Origin: an uncultured delta proteobacterium
Lineage (GTDB): Bacteria > Myxococcota > Myxococcia > SLRQ01
Direction: 5' to 3'
DNA length: 64,000 nt
Assembly (NCBI GenBank): GCA_963727485.1
Contig: CAVSGM010000011.1
Coordinates: 608,001 to 672,000 of the forward strand
Made by a program: the position numbers. The first letter of the stretch is position 1; every line of letters begins with the position of its first letter. This document shows, in pieces, positions 29,074-38,000 of the stretch.

Positions 29074-32000
29074 GGTCCGCCTGGTGGCAGCGCACGAAGG
29101 CGAAGTCGGCGCCCATCGCCCGCTCCAGCACGTAGGCCTTGCCGTCGAACTCGCGGACCTCCTTGCCCTCGGCGACCACCGTGCCCACGCCGGTGGGTGT
29201 GTAGAAGCCGGCCAGCCCGGCGCCGGCCGCGCGCATCCGCTCCACGAAGGTCCCTTGCGGCATCACCTCGACCTCGAGCTTCCCCTCGCCCCACAGCCGG
29301 TGCAGGTCCTCGTTGGTGCCCAGGTAGGTGCACCGCACCTTGGCGACGATGCCCGCCTTCAGCCAGGTCGCCAGCCCCTGGCCCAGGTTGCCGGCGTTGT
29401 TGGAGATGAGCGTCAGCTCGCGCACCCCGGCGTCGAGGACACCGGCGATGAGCGCCTCGGGGTTCCCGCAGAGGCCGAAGCCGCCGACCATGATCCGGGC
29501 GCCGTCGCCGATCCCGTCGAGGGCCTCGGCGACCGACGCCTTCACCTTGTTGCGATGCCGCCCGGACTCGGGCATGTGCGCCTCCTGAACGATTGCGCGC
29601 GAAGCGAGAAGCGAAGCGAAGAAGAGAGCCTAGGCGAGCGCCTCGCCCACCGCCTCGGCGAGCCCCGCGATCCCCGCCTCCAGGTCGGCGGCGGAGATCA
29701 CCAGCGGCGGCGAGACAATCACGTGCCCCATGGACGGGTACACGTGGGCGTGGATGCGCCGGGCGTGGAGCCCGGCGCGGAGCTTCTTCCACTGGGACGC
29801 GTCGGCGGAAAGATCGAAGGCCCCGAGCAGCCCCTTGCCCCTGACCGCCCGGACCCGCTCCGGGTGCCGCTCGGCCAGGCGCGTGAGCCCGCCCATCAGC
29901 GTCGTCTCGAGCGCCGCCGCCCGGGGGATGAGCCCCTCGTCCTCGTAGAGGCGCATCGCCTCCAGCCCCGCGGCGCAGCCCAGCGGGTGCGCGTAGTTCG
30001 TCAGCCCGGCGAGGAGCACCTTGTCGTCGAAGTGCCGCGCCACCTTCTCGTGGACCAGCACCGCCCCCAGCGGCGCGTAGCCGCCGGTGAGCCCCTTCGC
30101 CAGCGTGATGAGGTCCGGCGTCACCCCGAAGTGCTCGATCCCCAGCCACCGCCCGGTGCGCCCGAAGCCCGTGAGCACCTCGTCGGCGATGAGCAGCGCC
30201 CCCTCGCGATCGCAGGCCTCGCGCACCATCGGCCAGTACTCCGGCGGCGGCACCATCACCCCGTTGGCCCCGGGGATGGTCTCCAGGATCACCGCGCCGA
30301 CGTTGCCCTCCAGGCGCATCACCTCGCCGATGTGGGAGGCGCACTCGCGCGAGCACGTGGAGAGCGTCTTCCCGAAGGGGCAGGCGTGGCACCGGCAGTC
30401 CAGCGCGTGGACCACCCCGGGGATCCCCGGCTCCAGGGGCGGCCGGCGCCAGTCGCCGGAGAGCGTGAGCGCCCCCATGGTGGCCCCGTGGTAGCTGCGG
30501 TAGCGGCTCACCAGCTTGTACCGCCCGGTGACCATCCGGGCGATCTTGATGGCGTTCTCCGTGGCCTCCGCCCCGCCGAGGGTGAAGAAGACCTTGGAGA
30601 AGCCCTCGGGGGCCATCGCCAGGAGCCTGGCGGCCAGCTCGGTCTTCGCCGGGTACACCGCCGTGGGCGGCGCCAGGCACAGCTCGGCGGCCTGGCGCTG
30701 GATCGCCGCGACCATCTTGGGGTGCCCGTGGCCCAGGTTCGCCTGGTACGAGAGCGCCCCCAGGTCGAGCCACTTCCCGCCGTCGGCGGTGAAGAACCAA
30801 GCCCCCTCGCCGCCGGTGAGCTCCACCGGCCGGGCGTCCTGCTGGGCCGTCCAGGTGAAGAAGAAGGGGTGGTCCCCGGGCTGGCTCGGCCGGGTCACGG
30901 CGAGGCCTCCAGGGAGAAGATCTCCGGCCGGACGTGGTGGATGAGCCCCGCGGCGGCCAGCGCCTCGCCCCGGGAGAGGTCCATCACCATCGCCCCGCAG
31001 GTCGCCGACCGGTGCGGCTCCGTCGCCGTCGCCAGGTACCCGCACACCGCCCCGGGCCACCCCTCGGTGGACCCCAGGCGCCCCCAGAGGTCGTGGGCGT
31101 CGGCCAGCGGCCTCTCCGAGAGGCTCGCGGAGATGGCGTCGTAGCGCGCCTGGGTCGAGCTCACCGGCGCCACCGAGCTCACCGAGGCGACCTCGGGATC
31201 GAGGCAGTGGTCGGTGTGCACGAACCAGTCGGCGCCGCCGTCGTAGACCACCTTGCGCAGCCGCCCGCTGGTCTCGATGCCGAACGCTCCGTCCGCTCCG
31301 GCCACCAGGTAGTGGTGCCCCGAGCCCACCGGCGCCGAGAGGATGTGGTCGCGGGCGCCCTCCGCCGTGCGCGTGAGCAGCGCCCCGCGCACCAGCGCCG
31401 GCCACACCACCCCCACCTTGGCGTCGTTGGACCGCAGGTTGTTGATGGTCACCGCCACCCCGGCGTCGTTGAGGCCGGTCATGCCCAGGCAGCCCACGAG
31501 GCTGAAGAGCCAGGCCCCGGGCTGGTCCCCGGCGGACGGCACCCGGAGCATCATCACGAAGGGGATGGCGCTGGCGTGCATGTCCCAGGTCTGCCCCAGC
31601 ACCGGCCCGCTCGGCGTCCGGGCGAACGCCGCGGTGCACCCGCCGTCGTCCCCGGGCGCCGCCGGGTCGAGGTCCCGCAGGTCCGTGTAGTGGTTGAGCA
31701 CCACGATCTCCGCCGGGGTCCGCCCGCTGCCGTCGGCGATGCCCATCAGCTCGGCGTAGAGGTCGGGGTGGTAGTGCTCCAGCACCGGCAGGTGCCGCGC
31801 GGCGATCCCCAGGACCGTGGCGTCGTCGGGGAACTGGCCGATGGTCCGGGTGAGGTGCACCCGCAGGTCCACCAGGCTGCCGATCTCGTGGCGGAACGCC
31901 TCGCCGTGGATCCGCCCGCGCTCCACGGGCGGCGCGTCGTCGGGGAGCTCGAGGATGCGCATCAGAGGACCTCCTCCAGGGCGTCGTGGAGCCGGGTGGC

Positions 32001-35000: not shown

Positions 35001-38000
35001 GCGTAGAGCCGCTCGAGCCAGGCCTCGCTCTCGGGGAGCCGGCCGCCCTCGGGGAGCCGCAGCCCCAGCGGCCGCGGGCGGTTCACCAGGTCGCGGCCGG
35101 CGTCGCGGCGCTCCTCGTCCCGGTGGCGGGCTTCGAGACGATCCAGGTCGGATCCGGGGAGGGGAGAAGGGGTGCTCTGCGCCATGTCGACCTCGTGAAG
35201 GTGCCTGTAGGTAAACGCACGCTCAGCGGTCGAGTCAATTGATGCACTGCGCCGTGGCGGACCCGTGCGGTGGCCCGATCGGCGGCCCTGTTCTACGCTC
35301 GTGCGCATGACGGAGCATGGGGAAAGAGACGTAAAGATCTGTCTCACCATCGCCGGCACCGACTCCGGGGGCGGCGCGGGGATCGCCGCCGACCTCGCGA
35401 CCTTCGCCGCCCACGGCTGCCATGGCACCCTGGCGGTCACCTGCGTCACCGCCCAGAGCACCCTCCGGGTCGCCGCCGTCCACCCCGTGCCCCCCGGGAT
35501 CGTCGCCGCCCAGATCGACGCGGTCCTCGAGGACCTCCCCGCCGACGCCGTCAAGACCGGGATGCTCTTCGACGCCGGGATCATCGAGGCGGTCGCCGAT
35601 CGCCTGGCGGCCCACGGCGCGGCGCACCTGGTGGTGGACCCGGTCATGGTCGCCTCCACCGGGGCCCGGCTCCTGGAGGCCTCGGCCGTGGCCCTCCTCC
35701 GAGATCGCCTCCTGCCCCTGGCGGAGGTGGTCACCCCGAACCTCCCGGAGACCGAGGCCCTCGCCGGGGGCCCGGTCGCCACCGAGGCCGATCGCCTCGA
35801 GGCGGCGAGGCGGATCCTGGAGCTGGGGCCCCGGTTCGTGGTGGTCAAGGGCGGCCACGGCGAGGGCCCGGCGGTGGACCTGGTGGTGGGCCGGGACGGC
35901 ACCACCGAGCGCCTCGAGGCCCCGCGCCTCGAGACCCGGGCCACCCACGGCACCGGGTGCACCTTCTCGGCGGCCCTCGCCGCCGGGCTCGCCCGGGGAC
36001 GCCCGGTGGCCGAGGCGGCGGCGGAGGCCAAGGCCTACGTCCACCGGGCCATGGAGACCGCCTTCCCCCTCGGCGGCGGCCCCGGGCCCCTGAACCACTT
36101 CCACCGGTGGGGGTGACGGGGCGGTGGTGGGACGGCGCGCCTCGCGGTAGCATCGACGGTCGATGCGACGACGAGGGCAGGGGGGACGACGGCAGACGGC
36201 GCTGGTGGCGCTCCTCGGCCTGGTGGCACTGGGGGCGGCCCCCTGCGGCGCCGAGAACGTCGACGCCCCCCCGGACCCCCCGGCGCCCAAGGCCACCTGC
36301 CCCTCGCCCCGGACCATCGCGCCCACCTTCTACAGCCTCCTCGACCAGGACGCCTTCGCGGGGCTGGCCGACGTGGTCCACCAGTCGCTGGCCGCCTGTA
36401 CCTACGGAGGCCAGGTGGTCAGCTGCACCGACCCCCGGGCCGAGCCGCCCCCGGCGGGGATCCTCCTCGGCGGGCTCCTCCACGACCTGGGGACCTTCGC
36501 CGACGACCCCCCCGAGGTGACCCCCGGCGCCCGCCCGGGGCAGACCGGCTACTGCGCCGGCCCGGGCGATCCCGTCCCCGACCCGCCCAACCGCCTCTGC
36601 CTCATCCGCCGGTCCCTCCACCGGCTCATCGCCCAGCGCGACCCGAACGGCAAGGTGGTCCTGGTCACCGCCTTCGACGATCTCCAGCCGCTGGTGGCCG
36701 GGATCCTCCGCTACACCGACGGCACCCTCCCCGGGGTCCAGGGCGATCACTACGCCGCGCTCCCGGCCCTGGGCCACGTCATCCGCCGCTGCGACGGCCC
36801 CGAGGTCACCGGCCTCCTCCACGGGGTGCTCACCTGGCTGAAGCCCCCCCACGGCCAGCAGGCCCTGGACGCGGTGGTCACCCTCCTGCGCAACCAGGAC
36901 CTGCAGGCGTTCCTGGGGAACGTCGACGTCCAGAACGACGTGGGGCGCGCCGGGTTCATCGCCCTGCTCAAGGCGGTCATCTCCGCCATCCTCCGGCCCG
37001 ACTTCAAGCCCTCGGACCTCGACGACCTGATGAACCAGATCGTCTACCCCTTCGTCCGGCAGAACTACCCCGACCACGGCCTGGAGGGGGACCTGAAGGC
37101 CGCGGTGGCGGTCCTCGACGGCGTCCTCGACCCGCAGCTCACCCCCAACGTCCTCCACCCGCTGCAGAACGTCCTCTCCTGCACCGAGACCGCCGACAGC
37201 CAGTCGGTGATCCTCGGCGCCGTCTACGACCTGCTCTTCCAGGCCAAGGTGGTCAGCCTCGACGACCTCCTCGACACCCTCTCGAGCCTCCTCGCCCTCG
37301 ACCCGGACGGAAGCCTGCTCCAGGCCGCCGACGTCCTCGACCAGACCGTGGCCTCGGACCCGGACACCCATGACGCCCTCGACCAGGTCCTGGAGGTGAT
37401 GCTCGAGGACCCCAACGCCAGAAAGGTGGTGCCGGTGATGGTCAAGCTCCTGGAGTCGGACGTGGTCAGCGAGGCGGTGGGCCTCGTGGACGTCCTCTTC
37501 GACGGGTGTGGTGGCGCCGGATGAGGCGCGCCCGGCGCCCTCTCCTCCCGCTCGCCCTGGCGGCGCTCCTCCCCGGGGCGGCGCTGGCGAGCCCCCTGAC
37601 CACCTACGGCTTCAACCCCCGGGCCCTGTCCATGGGCGGGGCCCAGACCGCGGCCGCCGACGACGCCACCGCCACCTTCTACAACCCGGCGCTGCTCACC
37701 CGGCAGACCCGGGTGACCTTCGGCTTCGGCATCGAGTACGTGCGCCCCGAGGTCTTCGTGAAGCCGGTGAACACCCGGTTCGCCAAGCAGAACCAGCCGA
37801 GGCTCCCCAGCGACTTCACCCAGTACACCCTGGGCATCCTCTTCCCGCTGGGGGGCAAGGTGAAGAACCGCATCGCCCTGGGCGTGGGGATCTCGCTGCC
37901 CGGGGGCTACGTCGTCCGCGCCCAGTCCGTGGACCCGGCCCAGCCCTACTTCTACGTGCTGTCCACCAGCGCCCAGAAGATCGAGATCCTCCCGGCGTTC

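What a model noticed while it worked through the whole genome (the two positions that open the first line are those of the whole stretch)
29630..35185. Aminotransferase-GNAT-pseudoaminotransferase fusion with a C45 deacylase: an acylation-protected lysine catabolic route [...]
g04553/52 join a lysine-6-aminotransferase-like domain, a GNAT and a second aminotransferase domain that lacks the PLP lysine, followed by a C45 acylase and another class III aminotransferase; in relatives an AstD-like aldehyde dehydrogenase is fused in front (1,600-1,900 aa). It is likely a one-polypeptide acylate-transaminate-oxidise line, with C45 removing the acyl group: a lysine/ornithine counterpart of the arginine succinyltransferase pathway. 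This would be a new amino-acid catabolic route and an intramolecular active/pseudo aminotransferase pair.
Evidence so far: Best HMM is LAT at 124 bits against a cut-off of 521. 15 of 81 phylum genomes match, in ORFs of 1,040-1,925 aa. The ALDH is fused in 4 of 6 loci read and C45 lies within the locus in 5 of 6. The PLP-Lys motif is kept in domain 1 and replaced by WWYxGxQxG-type text in domain 2 in 7 of 7. Here astA and astD lie at C3:225136-227672 and no AstB or AstE rows exist. Search 196 listed nothing relevant.
(Added by a program. Inside this text positions count along the whole contig: contig position 608,001 is position 1 of the stretch shown here. "Call 12" and the like, gene names such as g00115 and contig names such as C1 are that model's own, and its searches are not shown. 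The text may have been shortened before it was handed on; [...] marks where a part breaks off. The agent that wrote the report below was given it as the finding of a first reader that could run no searches.)

Follow-up and report, generated by a model that had tools for sequence, protein, structure and literature searches.

The report
Likely B12-free beta-lysine breakdown operon
A five-gene cluster conserved across predatory bacteria, built around a fused enzyme whose two transaminase halves are predicted to share one active site, likely breaks lysine down through beta-lysine to 3-oxoadipate by a route that I did not find in the papers searched and that would need no vitamin B12.

Summary
The fusion is real. 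It joins a lysine-6-aminotransferase (LAT)-like domain, a GNAT, and a second aminotransferase domain without the PLP lysine. The split near 33,082 is very likely an assembly error.

The halves complement each other. Domain 1 keeps every own-subunit catalytic residue but has lost the Ser-Thr-Trp loop that the partner subunit normally donates. Domain 2 keeps that loop (Thr in 116 of 121 divergent homologues) and never has the lysine (0 of 123). It is therefore likely a single-chain pseudo-dimer.

In 201 genomes of one myxobacterial class, 53 of 55 with the fusion have that KamA subtype, and 0 of 55 have the B12 beta-lysine 5,6-aminomutase, which 38 others have.

Best reading (about 50%): beta-lysine is N3-acylated, transaminated at C6, oxidised by an AstD-like dehydrogenase, deacylated by C45 to 3-aminoadipate, transaminated to 3-oxoadipate and cleaved. 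No step has been assayed. A Barker-type N6-acetyl/GABA route is the main rival.

The parts
33690..35185 (-). AT1: active class III aminotransferase domain of the LAT/GABA-T type (PLP Lys codon at 34085-34087). It lacks the partner-donated Ser-Thr-Trp loop. The lower boundary is approximate.
   Evidence: Pfam and NCBIfam; structure match to M. tuberculosis LAT, Z 35.6, rmsd 2.4, 401 aligned; residue counts; six-residue gap against AT2
33085..33610 (-). GNAT acyltransferase domain inserted between AT1 and AT2 (boundaries approximate)
   Evidence: PF00583 at 21.7 bits; model pLDDT 96; best fold matches are Ard1/RimI/NatA-type GNATs, Z 18.8, rmsd 2.1, 151 aligned; invariant residues in 81 domains
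33078..33088 (-). Frameshift in a short G/C run, very likely an assembly error
   Evidence: GC3 frame switch; one short-read contig has an extra G behind 33082; the ORF is unbroken in most relatives
31962..33010 (-). AT2: catalytically dead aminotransferase copy. It has Gly at the PLP-Lys position (32352-32354) and keeps the Ser-Thr-Trp-Asp-Gly-Asp loop (32268-32285) predicted to complete AT1's site.
   Evidence: hhalign AT2 vs AT1, probability 96.5; Lys in 0 of 123, Thr in 116 of 121, Trp in 117 of 118; whole-chain model of a relative, pTM 0.94
30895..31962 (-). C45 Ntn-hydrolase with its Cys nucleophile; predicted deacylase. Its start overlaps the fusion's stop.
   Evidence: NF040521 at 166 bits, cut-off 85; closest solved structure 2x1d; Cys in 102 of 105
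29630..30898 (-). AT3: stand-alone class III aminotransferase of the taurine/beta-amino-acid type; predicted 3-aminoadipate transaminase
   Evidence: PRK06062 at 400 bits, cut-off 472; closest PDB entry 6JIX, taurine:2-oxoglutarate aminotransferase, E 4.8e-77; best plasmid hit lies beside a CoA-acylating methylmalonate-semialdehyde dehydrogenase
28847..29575 (-).
   Evidence: TIGR02429 at 272 bits, cut-off 128.5; in 59 of 81 loci; operon copies form one clade; best plasmid hit is LinG
28214..28844 (-). 3-oxoacid CoA-transferase subunit B, frameshifted near 28445 in this assembly
   Evidence: TIGR02428; two frames against a relative; in 55 of 81 loci

Best explanation
The operon likely encodes an acyl-protected, B12-free route that breaks beta-lysine down to 3-oxoadipate, built around a fusion whose dead second aminotransferase domain is predicted to serve as the built-in partner subunit of the live first one.

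Inferred steps: (1) KamA, encoded elsewhere in most genomes, makes beta-lysine from lysine. (2) The GNAT acylates the 3-amino group (succinyl or acetyl, not determined), which stops the later C6 aldehyde from cyclising to a pyrroline. (3) AT1, completed by AT2's Thr loop, moves the 6-amino group to 2-oxoglutarate. (4) The AstD-like ALDH oxidises the aldehyde to N-acyl-3-aminoadipate; it is fused in most Myxococcota, and here the stand-alone copy on contig C3 probably serves. (5) C45 removes the acyl group. (6) AT3 gives 3-oxoadipate. (7) ScoAB and a thiolase give succinyl-CoA and acetyl-CoA.

Shown: gene content, order, conserved residues and co-occurrence. Inferred: every substrate and reaction. 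My confidence in the pseudo-dimer alone is about 0.9, and in beta-lysine as the entry compound about 0.7.
For: Pseudo-dimer: in LAT, Ser329, Thr330 and Asn328 come from the other subunit (PMC9780415 passages). AT1 keeps the equivalents of Arg170, Glu243, Asp271, Gln274, Lys300 and Arg422 in 114/116, 119/123, 127/127, 123/127, 123/126 and 124/129 covered domains but has a gap at the loop. AT2 keeps the loop and lacks the Lys. Model pTM 0.94.

Beta-lysine: KamA lies between scoA and scoB in L121 and after scoA in L122, with the residues matching those of 2A5H kept. In 201 genomes of one class, 53 of 55 fusion-positive genomes have this KamA against 69 of 146 others. KamD is in 38 and overlaps the fusion in 0, where 10.4 would be expected if independent; 28 of the 38 have this same KamA subtype. 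26 of 28 further fusion genomes have it, as do 16 of 34 in the own-phylum sample, where only 4 of 267 fusion-negative genomes do.

3-oxoadipate branch: GNAT, AT1 and ALDH would be three consecutive steps in one chain. The ALDH scores best to AstD (330 bits, against 208 for the SSADH model TIGR01780) and nests among AstD-like enzymes. AT3 is of a beta-amino type. Operon ScoA copies form their own clade (34 rows, SH-aLRT 95), with Asn in 72 of 81 and Arg/Lys in 76 of 81 where the acetoacetate-type references have other residues. [quoted passage not shown] A thiolase lies next to the operon in 5 of 81 loci, and this genome has a PcaF-like thiolase (571 bits, cut-off 605).
Against: Nothing has been assayed, and I could not inspect model coordinates.

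KamA link: KamA is inside the operon in only 2 of 81 loci and in none of 20 more. This genome has no KamA of that subtype at E<=1e-100, only a long-branch relative and a canonical-type copy. 18 of 34 fusion-positive genomes in the own-phylum sample lack the subtype, and 2 of those 18 have no KamA-family match at E<=1e-20. 41 of 122 KamA-positive genomes have neither the fusion nor KamD, so KamA has other uses. These genomes also have epmA (5 of 5), so a KamA could serve EF-P modification. Related genomes are not independent, and no family labels were given for the 201-genome sample. KamA was not tested in Bacteriovoracaceae.

Downstream steps: operon ScoA is overall slightly closer to ScoA-type references (41-57%) than to PcaI/CatI (39-49%); LinG itself lacks the Asn/Arg motif, and the window's own copy has Gln at the Arg/Lys position. 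By single-sequence search AT1's best solved hit is GABA-aminotransferase, and by fold LAT ties with ArgD/AstC. scoAB was not seen near the fusion in the small-genome family f18.
Confidence: 0.5

Rival explanations
1. The genes encode the beta-lysine route described biochemically by Barker's group in a Pseudomonas (recalled, not read). The GNAT makes N6-acetyl-beta-lysine and AT3 makes 3-keto-6-acetamidohexanoate. ScoAB plus thiolase (or a BKACE enzyme) give 4-acetamidobutyryl-CoA, C45 releases GABA, and AT1 and the ALDH give succinate.
For: It uses the same KamA evidence and accounts for every gene. AT1's best single-sequence PDB hit is GABA-aminotransferase; AT3 is of a beta-amino type; C45's closest structure is an acyl-CoA acyltransferase/hydrolase; a BKACE gene lies about 10 kb away in this window.
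Against: The ALDH is AstD-like rather than SSADH-like. The fused domains would be non-consecutive steps. BKACE does not track the fusion (29 of 47 fusion-positive, 8 of 17 and 6 of 11 in two negative sets) and was in none of the fusion loci held. A conserved basic residue in ScoA fits a dicarboxylic acid better (inference).
Confidence: 0.2
2. One reading: N2-acylated L-lysine (or ornithine) is transaminated and oxidised to N-acyl-2-aminoadipate (or N-acylglutamate), deacylated by C45 and transaminated by AT3 to 2-oxoadipate.
For: LAT-type AT1 and AstD-type ALDH; the GNAT folds like N-alpha acetyltransferases; genes resembling 2-oxoglutarate dehydrogenase subunits (my reading of the sequences, not HMM-tested) lie near some loci; astA-astD lies beside the operon in 1 of 81 loci.
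Against: It does not explain the conserved 3-oxoacid CoA-transferase, KamA inside the operon, the exclusion of KamD, or a beta-amino-type AT3. An ornithine route would end at glutamate and need no AT3.
Confidence: 0.1
3. A diamine (putrescine or cadaverine) or another omega-amine is acylated, oxidised to an N-acyl-omega-amino acid, deacylated and transaminated to a dicarboxylic semialdehyde.
For: Two aminotransferases, one GNAT, one ALDH and one deacylase fit the count.
Against: AT1 keeps the carboxylate-binding Arg of LAT in 114 of 116, which points to an amino acid substrate. The KamA and KamD patterns are left unexplained.
Confidence: 0.07
4. The operon is biosynthetic and makes an acylated beta-amino acid (an osmolyte or a building block).
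For: The same KamA subtype lies beside an AblB-like acetyltransferase in one fusion-negative genome; the operon persists in 1.4-3.4 Mb genomes.
Against: An ALDH, a CoA-transferase and a thiolase point to catabolism. I saw no conserved transporter or assembly-line genes among the recurring neighbours.
Confidence: 0.06

Closest known systems
Arginine succinyltransferase (AST) pathway, AstA-E (pathway recalled; HMMs tested)
   Same: Protect, transaminate, oxidise, deprotect; an AstD-like ALDH; the same amine-to-aldehyde spacing if the substrate is beta-lysine.
   Different: The acyltransferase is a small GNAT, the aminotransferase is a LAT-type pseudo-dimer, and the deacylase is C45. A second aminotransferase and a 3-oxoacid CoA-transferase are added. 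AstB was not found in this genome.
L-lysine epsilon-aminotransferase (M. tuberculosis Rv3290c, PDB 2CIN; TIGR03251)
   Same: Fold (Z 35.5, rmsd 2.4, 401 aligned) and all own-subunit catalytic residues.
   Different: Scores 124 against a cut-off of 521. It is not a homodimer with two sites: the Ser-Thr loop is missing from AT1 and sits on the fused dead copy.
Classical lysine route through beta-lysine: KamA, B12-dependent KamDE, Kdd, Kce (pathway recalled)
   Same: The inferred entry step, KamA.
   Different: KamD never co-occurred with the fusion in 201 genomes (0 of 55); the fusion looks like its replacement.
Barker's aerobic beta-lysine route of a Pseudomonas (N6-acetyl-beta-lysine, 3-keto-6-acetamidohexanoate, 4-acetamidobutyryl-CoA; recalled, not read)
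   Same: Acylation-protected beta-lysine catabolism with two transaminases and a deacylase.
   Different: It protects N6 and passes through GABA and a keto-acid cleavage enzyme. Here the ALDH is AstD-like and BKACE is unlinked. It is kept as the main rival.
Lower beta-ketoadipate pathway (PcaIJ/LinGH and PcaF/LinJ)
   Same: A family I 3-oxoacid CoA-transferase and sometimes a thiolase; the best plasmid hit is LinG.
   Different: The operon copies are a separate clade from both PcaI/CatI and ScoA and would be fed from an amino acid, not an aromatic ring.
PLP enzymes with one dead half: serine palmitoyltransferase LCB1/LCB2 and glycine decarboxylase P-protein (recalled)
   Same: A lysine-less partner completes a single active site.
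   Different: These belong to other subfamilies. Here both halves are class III copies in one chain with a GNAT between them; one search listed no paper on such a pair.

Membership tests
LAT (TIGR03251) | HMM score at or above 520.8 | tested here: not met
   124.2 bits
LAT (TIGR03251) | Own-subunit residues Arg170, Glu243, Asp271, Gln274, Lys300, Arg422 | tested here: met
   roles from PMC9780415 passages
LAT (TIGR03251) | Asn328-Ser329-Thr330 loop on the same polypeptide type (homodimer) | tested here: not met
   Gap in AT1; the loop is on AT2
LAT (TIGR03251) | Transaminates the epsilon amine of free L-lysine | not testable with these tools
   Needs an assay
AST pathway | AstD-type dehydrogenase at its cut-off | tested here: not met
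   The fused ALDH scores 330 of 514 (PRK09457) and 310 of 579 (TIGR03240), though AstD is the best family and the tree places it among AstD-like enzymes
AST pathway | AstA-type succinyltransferase as the acylating enzyme of the operon | tested here: inconclusive
   The domain folds best like Ard1/RimI-type GNATs; a separate astA-like gene is near-universal in the phylum
AST pathway | AstB dihydrolase in the genome | tested here: not met
   No match in this genome (93% complete) or in 3 of 4 other fusion genomes; the control rang in E. coli and Caulobacter. AstE was not searched.
Peptidase C45 (NF040521) | Score above the cut-off and a Cys nucleophile | tested here: met
   166 bits, cut-off 85; Cys in 102 of 105
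3-oxoacid CoA-transferase A (TIGR02429) | Score above the cut-off | tested here: met
   272.5 bits, cut-off 128.5
PcaI/CatI 3-oxoadipate CoA-transferase | Groups with PcaI/CatI | tested here: not met
   Separate clade in a quick tree with two PcaI/CatI references; LinG shows that the ScoA-type scaffold can also act on 3-oxoadipate
Lysine 2,3-aminomutase (TIGR03820), for the linked KamA | Score at or above 525.4 | tested here: not met
   282 bits; it passes the broader KamA family TIGR00238 at 244, cut-off 199
Lysine 2,3-aminomutase (TIGR03820), for the linked KamA | CxxxCxxC and the residues matching Arg134, Asp293, Asp330 and Lys337 of 2A5H (roles recalled) | tested here: met
   28 of 28 KamA-family sequences examined, including both copies in this genome. 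Other KamA subfamilies share these residues, so the test does not single out this subtype.
Barker beta-lysine route | Linked keto-acid cleavage enzyme (BKACE) | tested here: not met
   Not in the fusion loci held and not tracking the fusion
Barker beta-lysine route | Acylation at N6 and a GABA intermediate | not testable with these tools
   Needs an assay

The most novel reading that the evidence does not exclude
Predatory Myxococcota and Bdellovibrionota share an undescribed B12-independent lysine pathway through beta-lysine, N3-acyl-3-aminoadipate and 3-oxoadipate. It replaces KamDE-Kdd-Kce and runs on a single-chain ALDH-aminotransferase-GNAT-pseudoaminotransferase with one composite PLP site.
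Probability: 0.5. Interest if true: 0.82.

Novelty: new variant of a known kind. Interest (0 to 1): 0.72.

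Why it matters
If true, it adds a route to the short list of ways bacteria degrade lysine, explains a KamA that has no known downstream partner in many predatory bacteria, and joins amino-acid catabolism to the beta-ketoadipate pathway. It would supply enzymes that turn lysine into 3-aminoadipate and 3-oxoadipate, both six-carbon dicarboxylic building blocks. 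Whatever the substrate, the fusion is a clean natural case of a class III aminotransferase dimer split into a live and a dead half. Cultured strains carry the gene (Halobacteriovorax marinus SJ, CBW26688.1; Bacteriovorax stolpii, WP_102243816.1), so it can be tested directly. If the rival holds instead, the operon would give genes to an old biochemical pathway.

Tried and rejected
astA/astD link: rejected as a clue, because astA-like genes are in 232 of 301 genomes.

BKACE in the window: not linked to the fusion. The divergent FHA-GAF-SpoIIE gene, thrS-ddl, thiD and the AraC gene are lineage-specific neighbours.

P0226 (5,578 aa): LAT-like and ALDH-like repeats without this architecture; set aside.

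The conservation count selected sequences on the motif it counted (81 of 151), so I redid it without that filter. The AT1 positions printed after residue 194 were off by two columns and were replaced.

Complex prediction of AT1 with AT2 and PLP was not available, so no interface score exists. No split or weaker version of the fusion was found in the 41 KamA-positive genomes lacking both routes (best E about 1e-17). KamD search in 5 fusion genomes rang nowhere, controls included; the same family did ring.

AstA-type and AblB-type folds were not among the 50 rows for the GNAT, which excludes nothing. The ESM Atlas gave only generic GNAT clusters. No RNA holder was listed.

Paper searches listed nothing on this fusion, on 3-aminoadipate catabolism or on genes for the Barker route; the library lacks most subscription and older papers. 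PMC10829540 (part 1 of 5 read) describes an unrelated transaminase-reductase fusion. No supplements were read.

Full report
Observation. The region is a minus-strand operon in a roughly 73% GC genome: AT1-GNAT from 35185, a frame change near 33082, AT2 to 31962, C45 (31962-30895), AT3 (30898-29630), scoA (29575-28847) and scoB (28844-28214). The stop and start codons of the first three genes overlap. The break in the fusion is very likely an assembly error. A 597-base short-read contig with one other letter carries an extra G behind 33082 (one contig, depth 3.6). Most relatives have one ORF, and scoB and a BKACE gene in this window are broken the same way.

Family. A relative's intact 1,075-aa protein gave 800 hits at E<=1e-20 among 7,992 scored. 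107 of the best 120 are at least 1,500 aa, with ALDH catalytic motifs in 100-106 of those 107. A profile search found 369 representatives at E<=1e-30. Named members include Myxococcota MAGs, Halobacteriovorax marinus SJ and Bacteriovorax stolpii. The fusion is in 34 of 301 own-phylum genomes, absent from the two largest families sampled (0 of 123 and 0 of 42), and present in 13 of 18 small genomes of family f18. Of 123 loci tabulated, 81 had AT2 and at least 5 kb downstream; one duplicate of L020 was dropped but other near-duplicates remain. In those 81, C45 is in 70, AT3 in 66, scoA in 59, scoB in 55, an ALDH in 42, a thiolase in 5 and a KamA-family gene in 3, two of them inside the operon. 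C45 follows the fusion even when unlinked: 13 of 14 fusion-positive genomes against 2 of 46 negative ones.

The pseudo-dimer. A review of M. tuberculosis LAT (PMC9780415, two passages read) lists Arg170, Glu243, Asp271, Gln274, Lys300 and Arg422 from one subunit, and Asn328, Ser329 and Thr330 from the other. Among divergent representatives not selected by motif, AT1 keeps the first set in 114/116, 119/123, 127/127, 123/127, 123/126 and 124/129 covered domains. It has a gap where the loop should be. AT2 aligns to AT1 (probability 96.5), has no lysine at the PLP position (0 of 123), has lost the carboxylate-binding Arg and the Gln, and keeps Thr (116/121) and Trp (117/118) of the loop. Each half has lost what only the dead site would need. 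An AlphaFold2 model of the three-domain chain has pLDDT 93 and pTM 0.94, and AT1 matches LAT at Z 35.6, tied within 1 with ArgD/AstC. I could not view coordinates and no complex prediction was available, so the contact itself is inferred.

Entry compound. In L121 a KamA-family gene lies between scoA and scoB, with a thiolase after them; in L122 it follows scoA. Its closest named relatives are from Planctomycetota. It aligns to C. subterminale lysine 2,3-aminomutase with the cluster motif and the positions of Arg134, Asp293, Asp330 and Lys337 kept (roles recalled). In 201 genomes of the class of G309, the fusion is in 55, this KamA subtype in 122 and the B12 beta-lysine 5,6-aminomutase KamD in 38. 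Of the 55, 53 have KamA and none has KamD; 28 KamD genomes use the same KamA subtype. The simplest reading is two alternative routes downstream of beta-lysine.

Against that reading: kin are not independent and I had no family labels for this sample. 41 KamA genomes have neither route. 18 of 34 fusion genomes in the own-phylum sample lack the subtype; 16 of those 18 have some KamA-family match, 13 of them two or more. This genome has a long-branch relative at C1:1028932 and a canonical-type copy at C11:815599, and it has epmA, so one copy may serve EF-P. Bacteriovoracaceae were not tested.

Which route. Two schemes use all the genes. In the one I prefer, the GNAT caps N3 and AT1 removes the C6 amine; its Arg and Glu/Arg switch suit an omega-amine of a carboxylic acid with 2-oxoglutarate as acceptor. 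The ALDH then gives N-acyl-3-aminoadipate, C45 uncaps it, AT3 gives 3-oxoadipate, and ScoAB plus a thiolase finish. The cap is needed because 3-aminoadipate-6-semialdehyde would cyclise as glutamate-5-semialdehyde does (chemical inference). Supporting points: the three fused activities are consecutive; the ALDH scores best to AstD, and fused copies form a clade (support 99) inside an AstD-like group that includes this genome's stand-alone copy (quick tree); AT3's closest solved structure is a taurine:2-oxoglutarate aminotransferase, and its best plasmid hit lies beside a methylmalonate-semialdehyde dehydrogenase. Also, 34 operon ScoA copies form one clade apart from the five references and from a second ScoA in L110 (quick tree), and carry a conserved Asn and Arg/Lys. 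[quoted passage not shown]

The rival is the N6-acetyl, 3-keto-6-acetamidohexanoate, GABA route of Barker (recalled). It is favoured by AT1's sequence likeness to GABA-aminotransferase and by ScoA's slightly higher identity to acetoacetate-type references. It is weakened by the AstD-like ALDH and by BKACE not tracking the fusion (29 of 47, 8 of 17, 6 of 11). The acyl group is undetermined. The GNAT folds like Ard1/RimI-type acetyltransferases (Z 18.8, rmsd 2.1, 151 aligned), while the AstD likeness would suit succinyl.

Comparison with what is known. It works like AST but is not AST: the AstD and LAT cut-offs are not met, AstB is missing here, and astA is unrelated in distribution (the tally includes one genome flagged unpublished, G185). 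Paper searches listed nothing on this fusion or route; the library is limited to open papers. Of the other papers, I read part 1 of 5 of PMC10829540 (unrelated fusion) and one passage of bioRxiv 2021.06.01.446673, which mentions EC 2.6.1.65 without naming it. Earlier AI notes from this scan on other genomes reach the same architecture, and two of them reach beta-lysine. I saw them only after forming this reading, and they are not independent evidence.

Verdict. A real, conserved and uncharacterised system. The pseudo-dimer is about 0.9 likely, beta-lysine entry about 0.7, and the 3-oxoadipate route about 0.5. New variant of a known kind; interest 0.72.

Noticed in passing
window 45730-46590 (-): BKACE (Kce-family) gene, frameshifted near 45885; not linked to the fusion across genomes.
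   Followed up: yes
window 25299-28084 (-): Two tandem, mutually similar genes of about 500 aa right after scoB; the one tested has no Pfam match, and the other is frameshifted near 27700.
   Followed up: partly
G000 C1:1028932-1030242 (L216) and G272 (L217): A long-branch KamA-family protein with an altered PLP-lysine loop, seen only in this genome and one same-family genome among those compared.
   Followed up: partly
41 genomes of the class of G309 (for example G333, G335, G440): They have the linked KamA subtype but neither KamD nor the fusion, which suggests a third use or route for beta-lysine.
   Followed up: partly
Own-phylum sample: An astA-like gene is in 232 of 301 genomes, always below the family cut-off, while astB was found in only 1 of 5 genomes tested. 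How these bacteria process succinylarginine is unclear.
   Followed up: no
L185:7259-10976 (G098): Two different KamA-family genes flank an AblB-like beta-lysine acetyltransferase.
   Followed up: no
Protein P0226 (5,578 aa): A giant protein with three LAT-like and three ALDH-like stretches and an oxidoreductase-like segment, read by eye; named betaine-aldehyde dehydrogenase by its source.
   Followed up: partly
L056, L057, L060 (G052, G123, G087): Shorter ALDH fusions of about 1,430-1,470 aa in 1.8 Mb genomes, between a 4-TM holin-like gene and clpA, without C45 or AT3 in the stretch read.
   Followed up: partly
window 1-7700 (+): End of the spc/alpha ribosomal protein operon (secY, adk, rpoA-like genes), recognised by eye from translations.
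   Followed up: no
window 35265-41737: thiD directly upstream of the fusion and divergent from it (also in L020), a FadL-type outer-membrane gene, and an indigoidine-synthase-A-like gene.
   Followed up: partly
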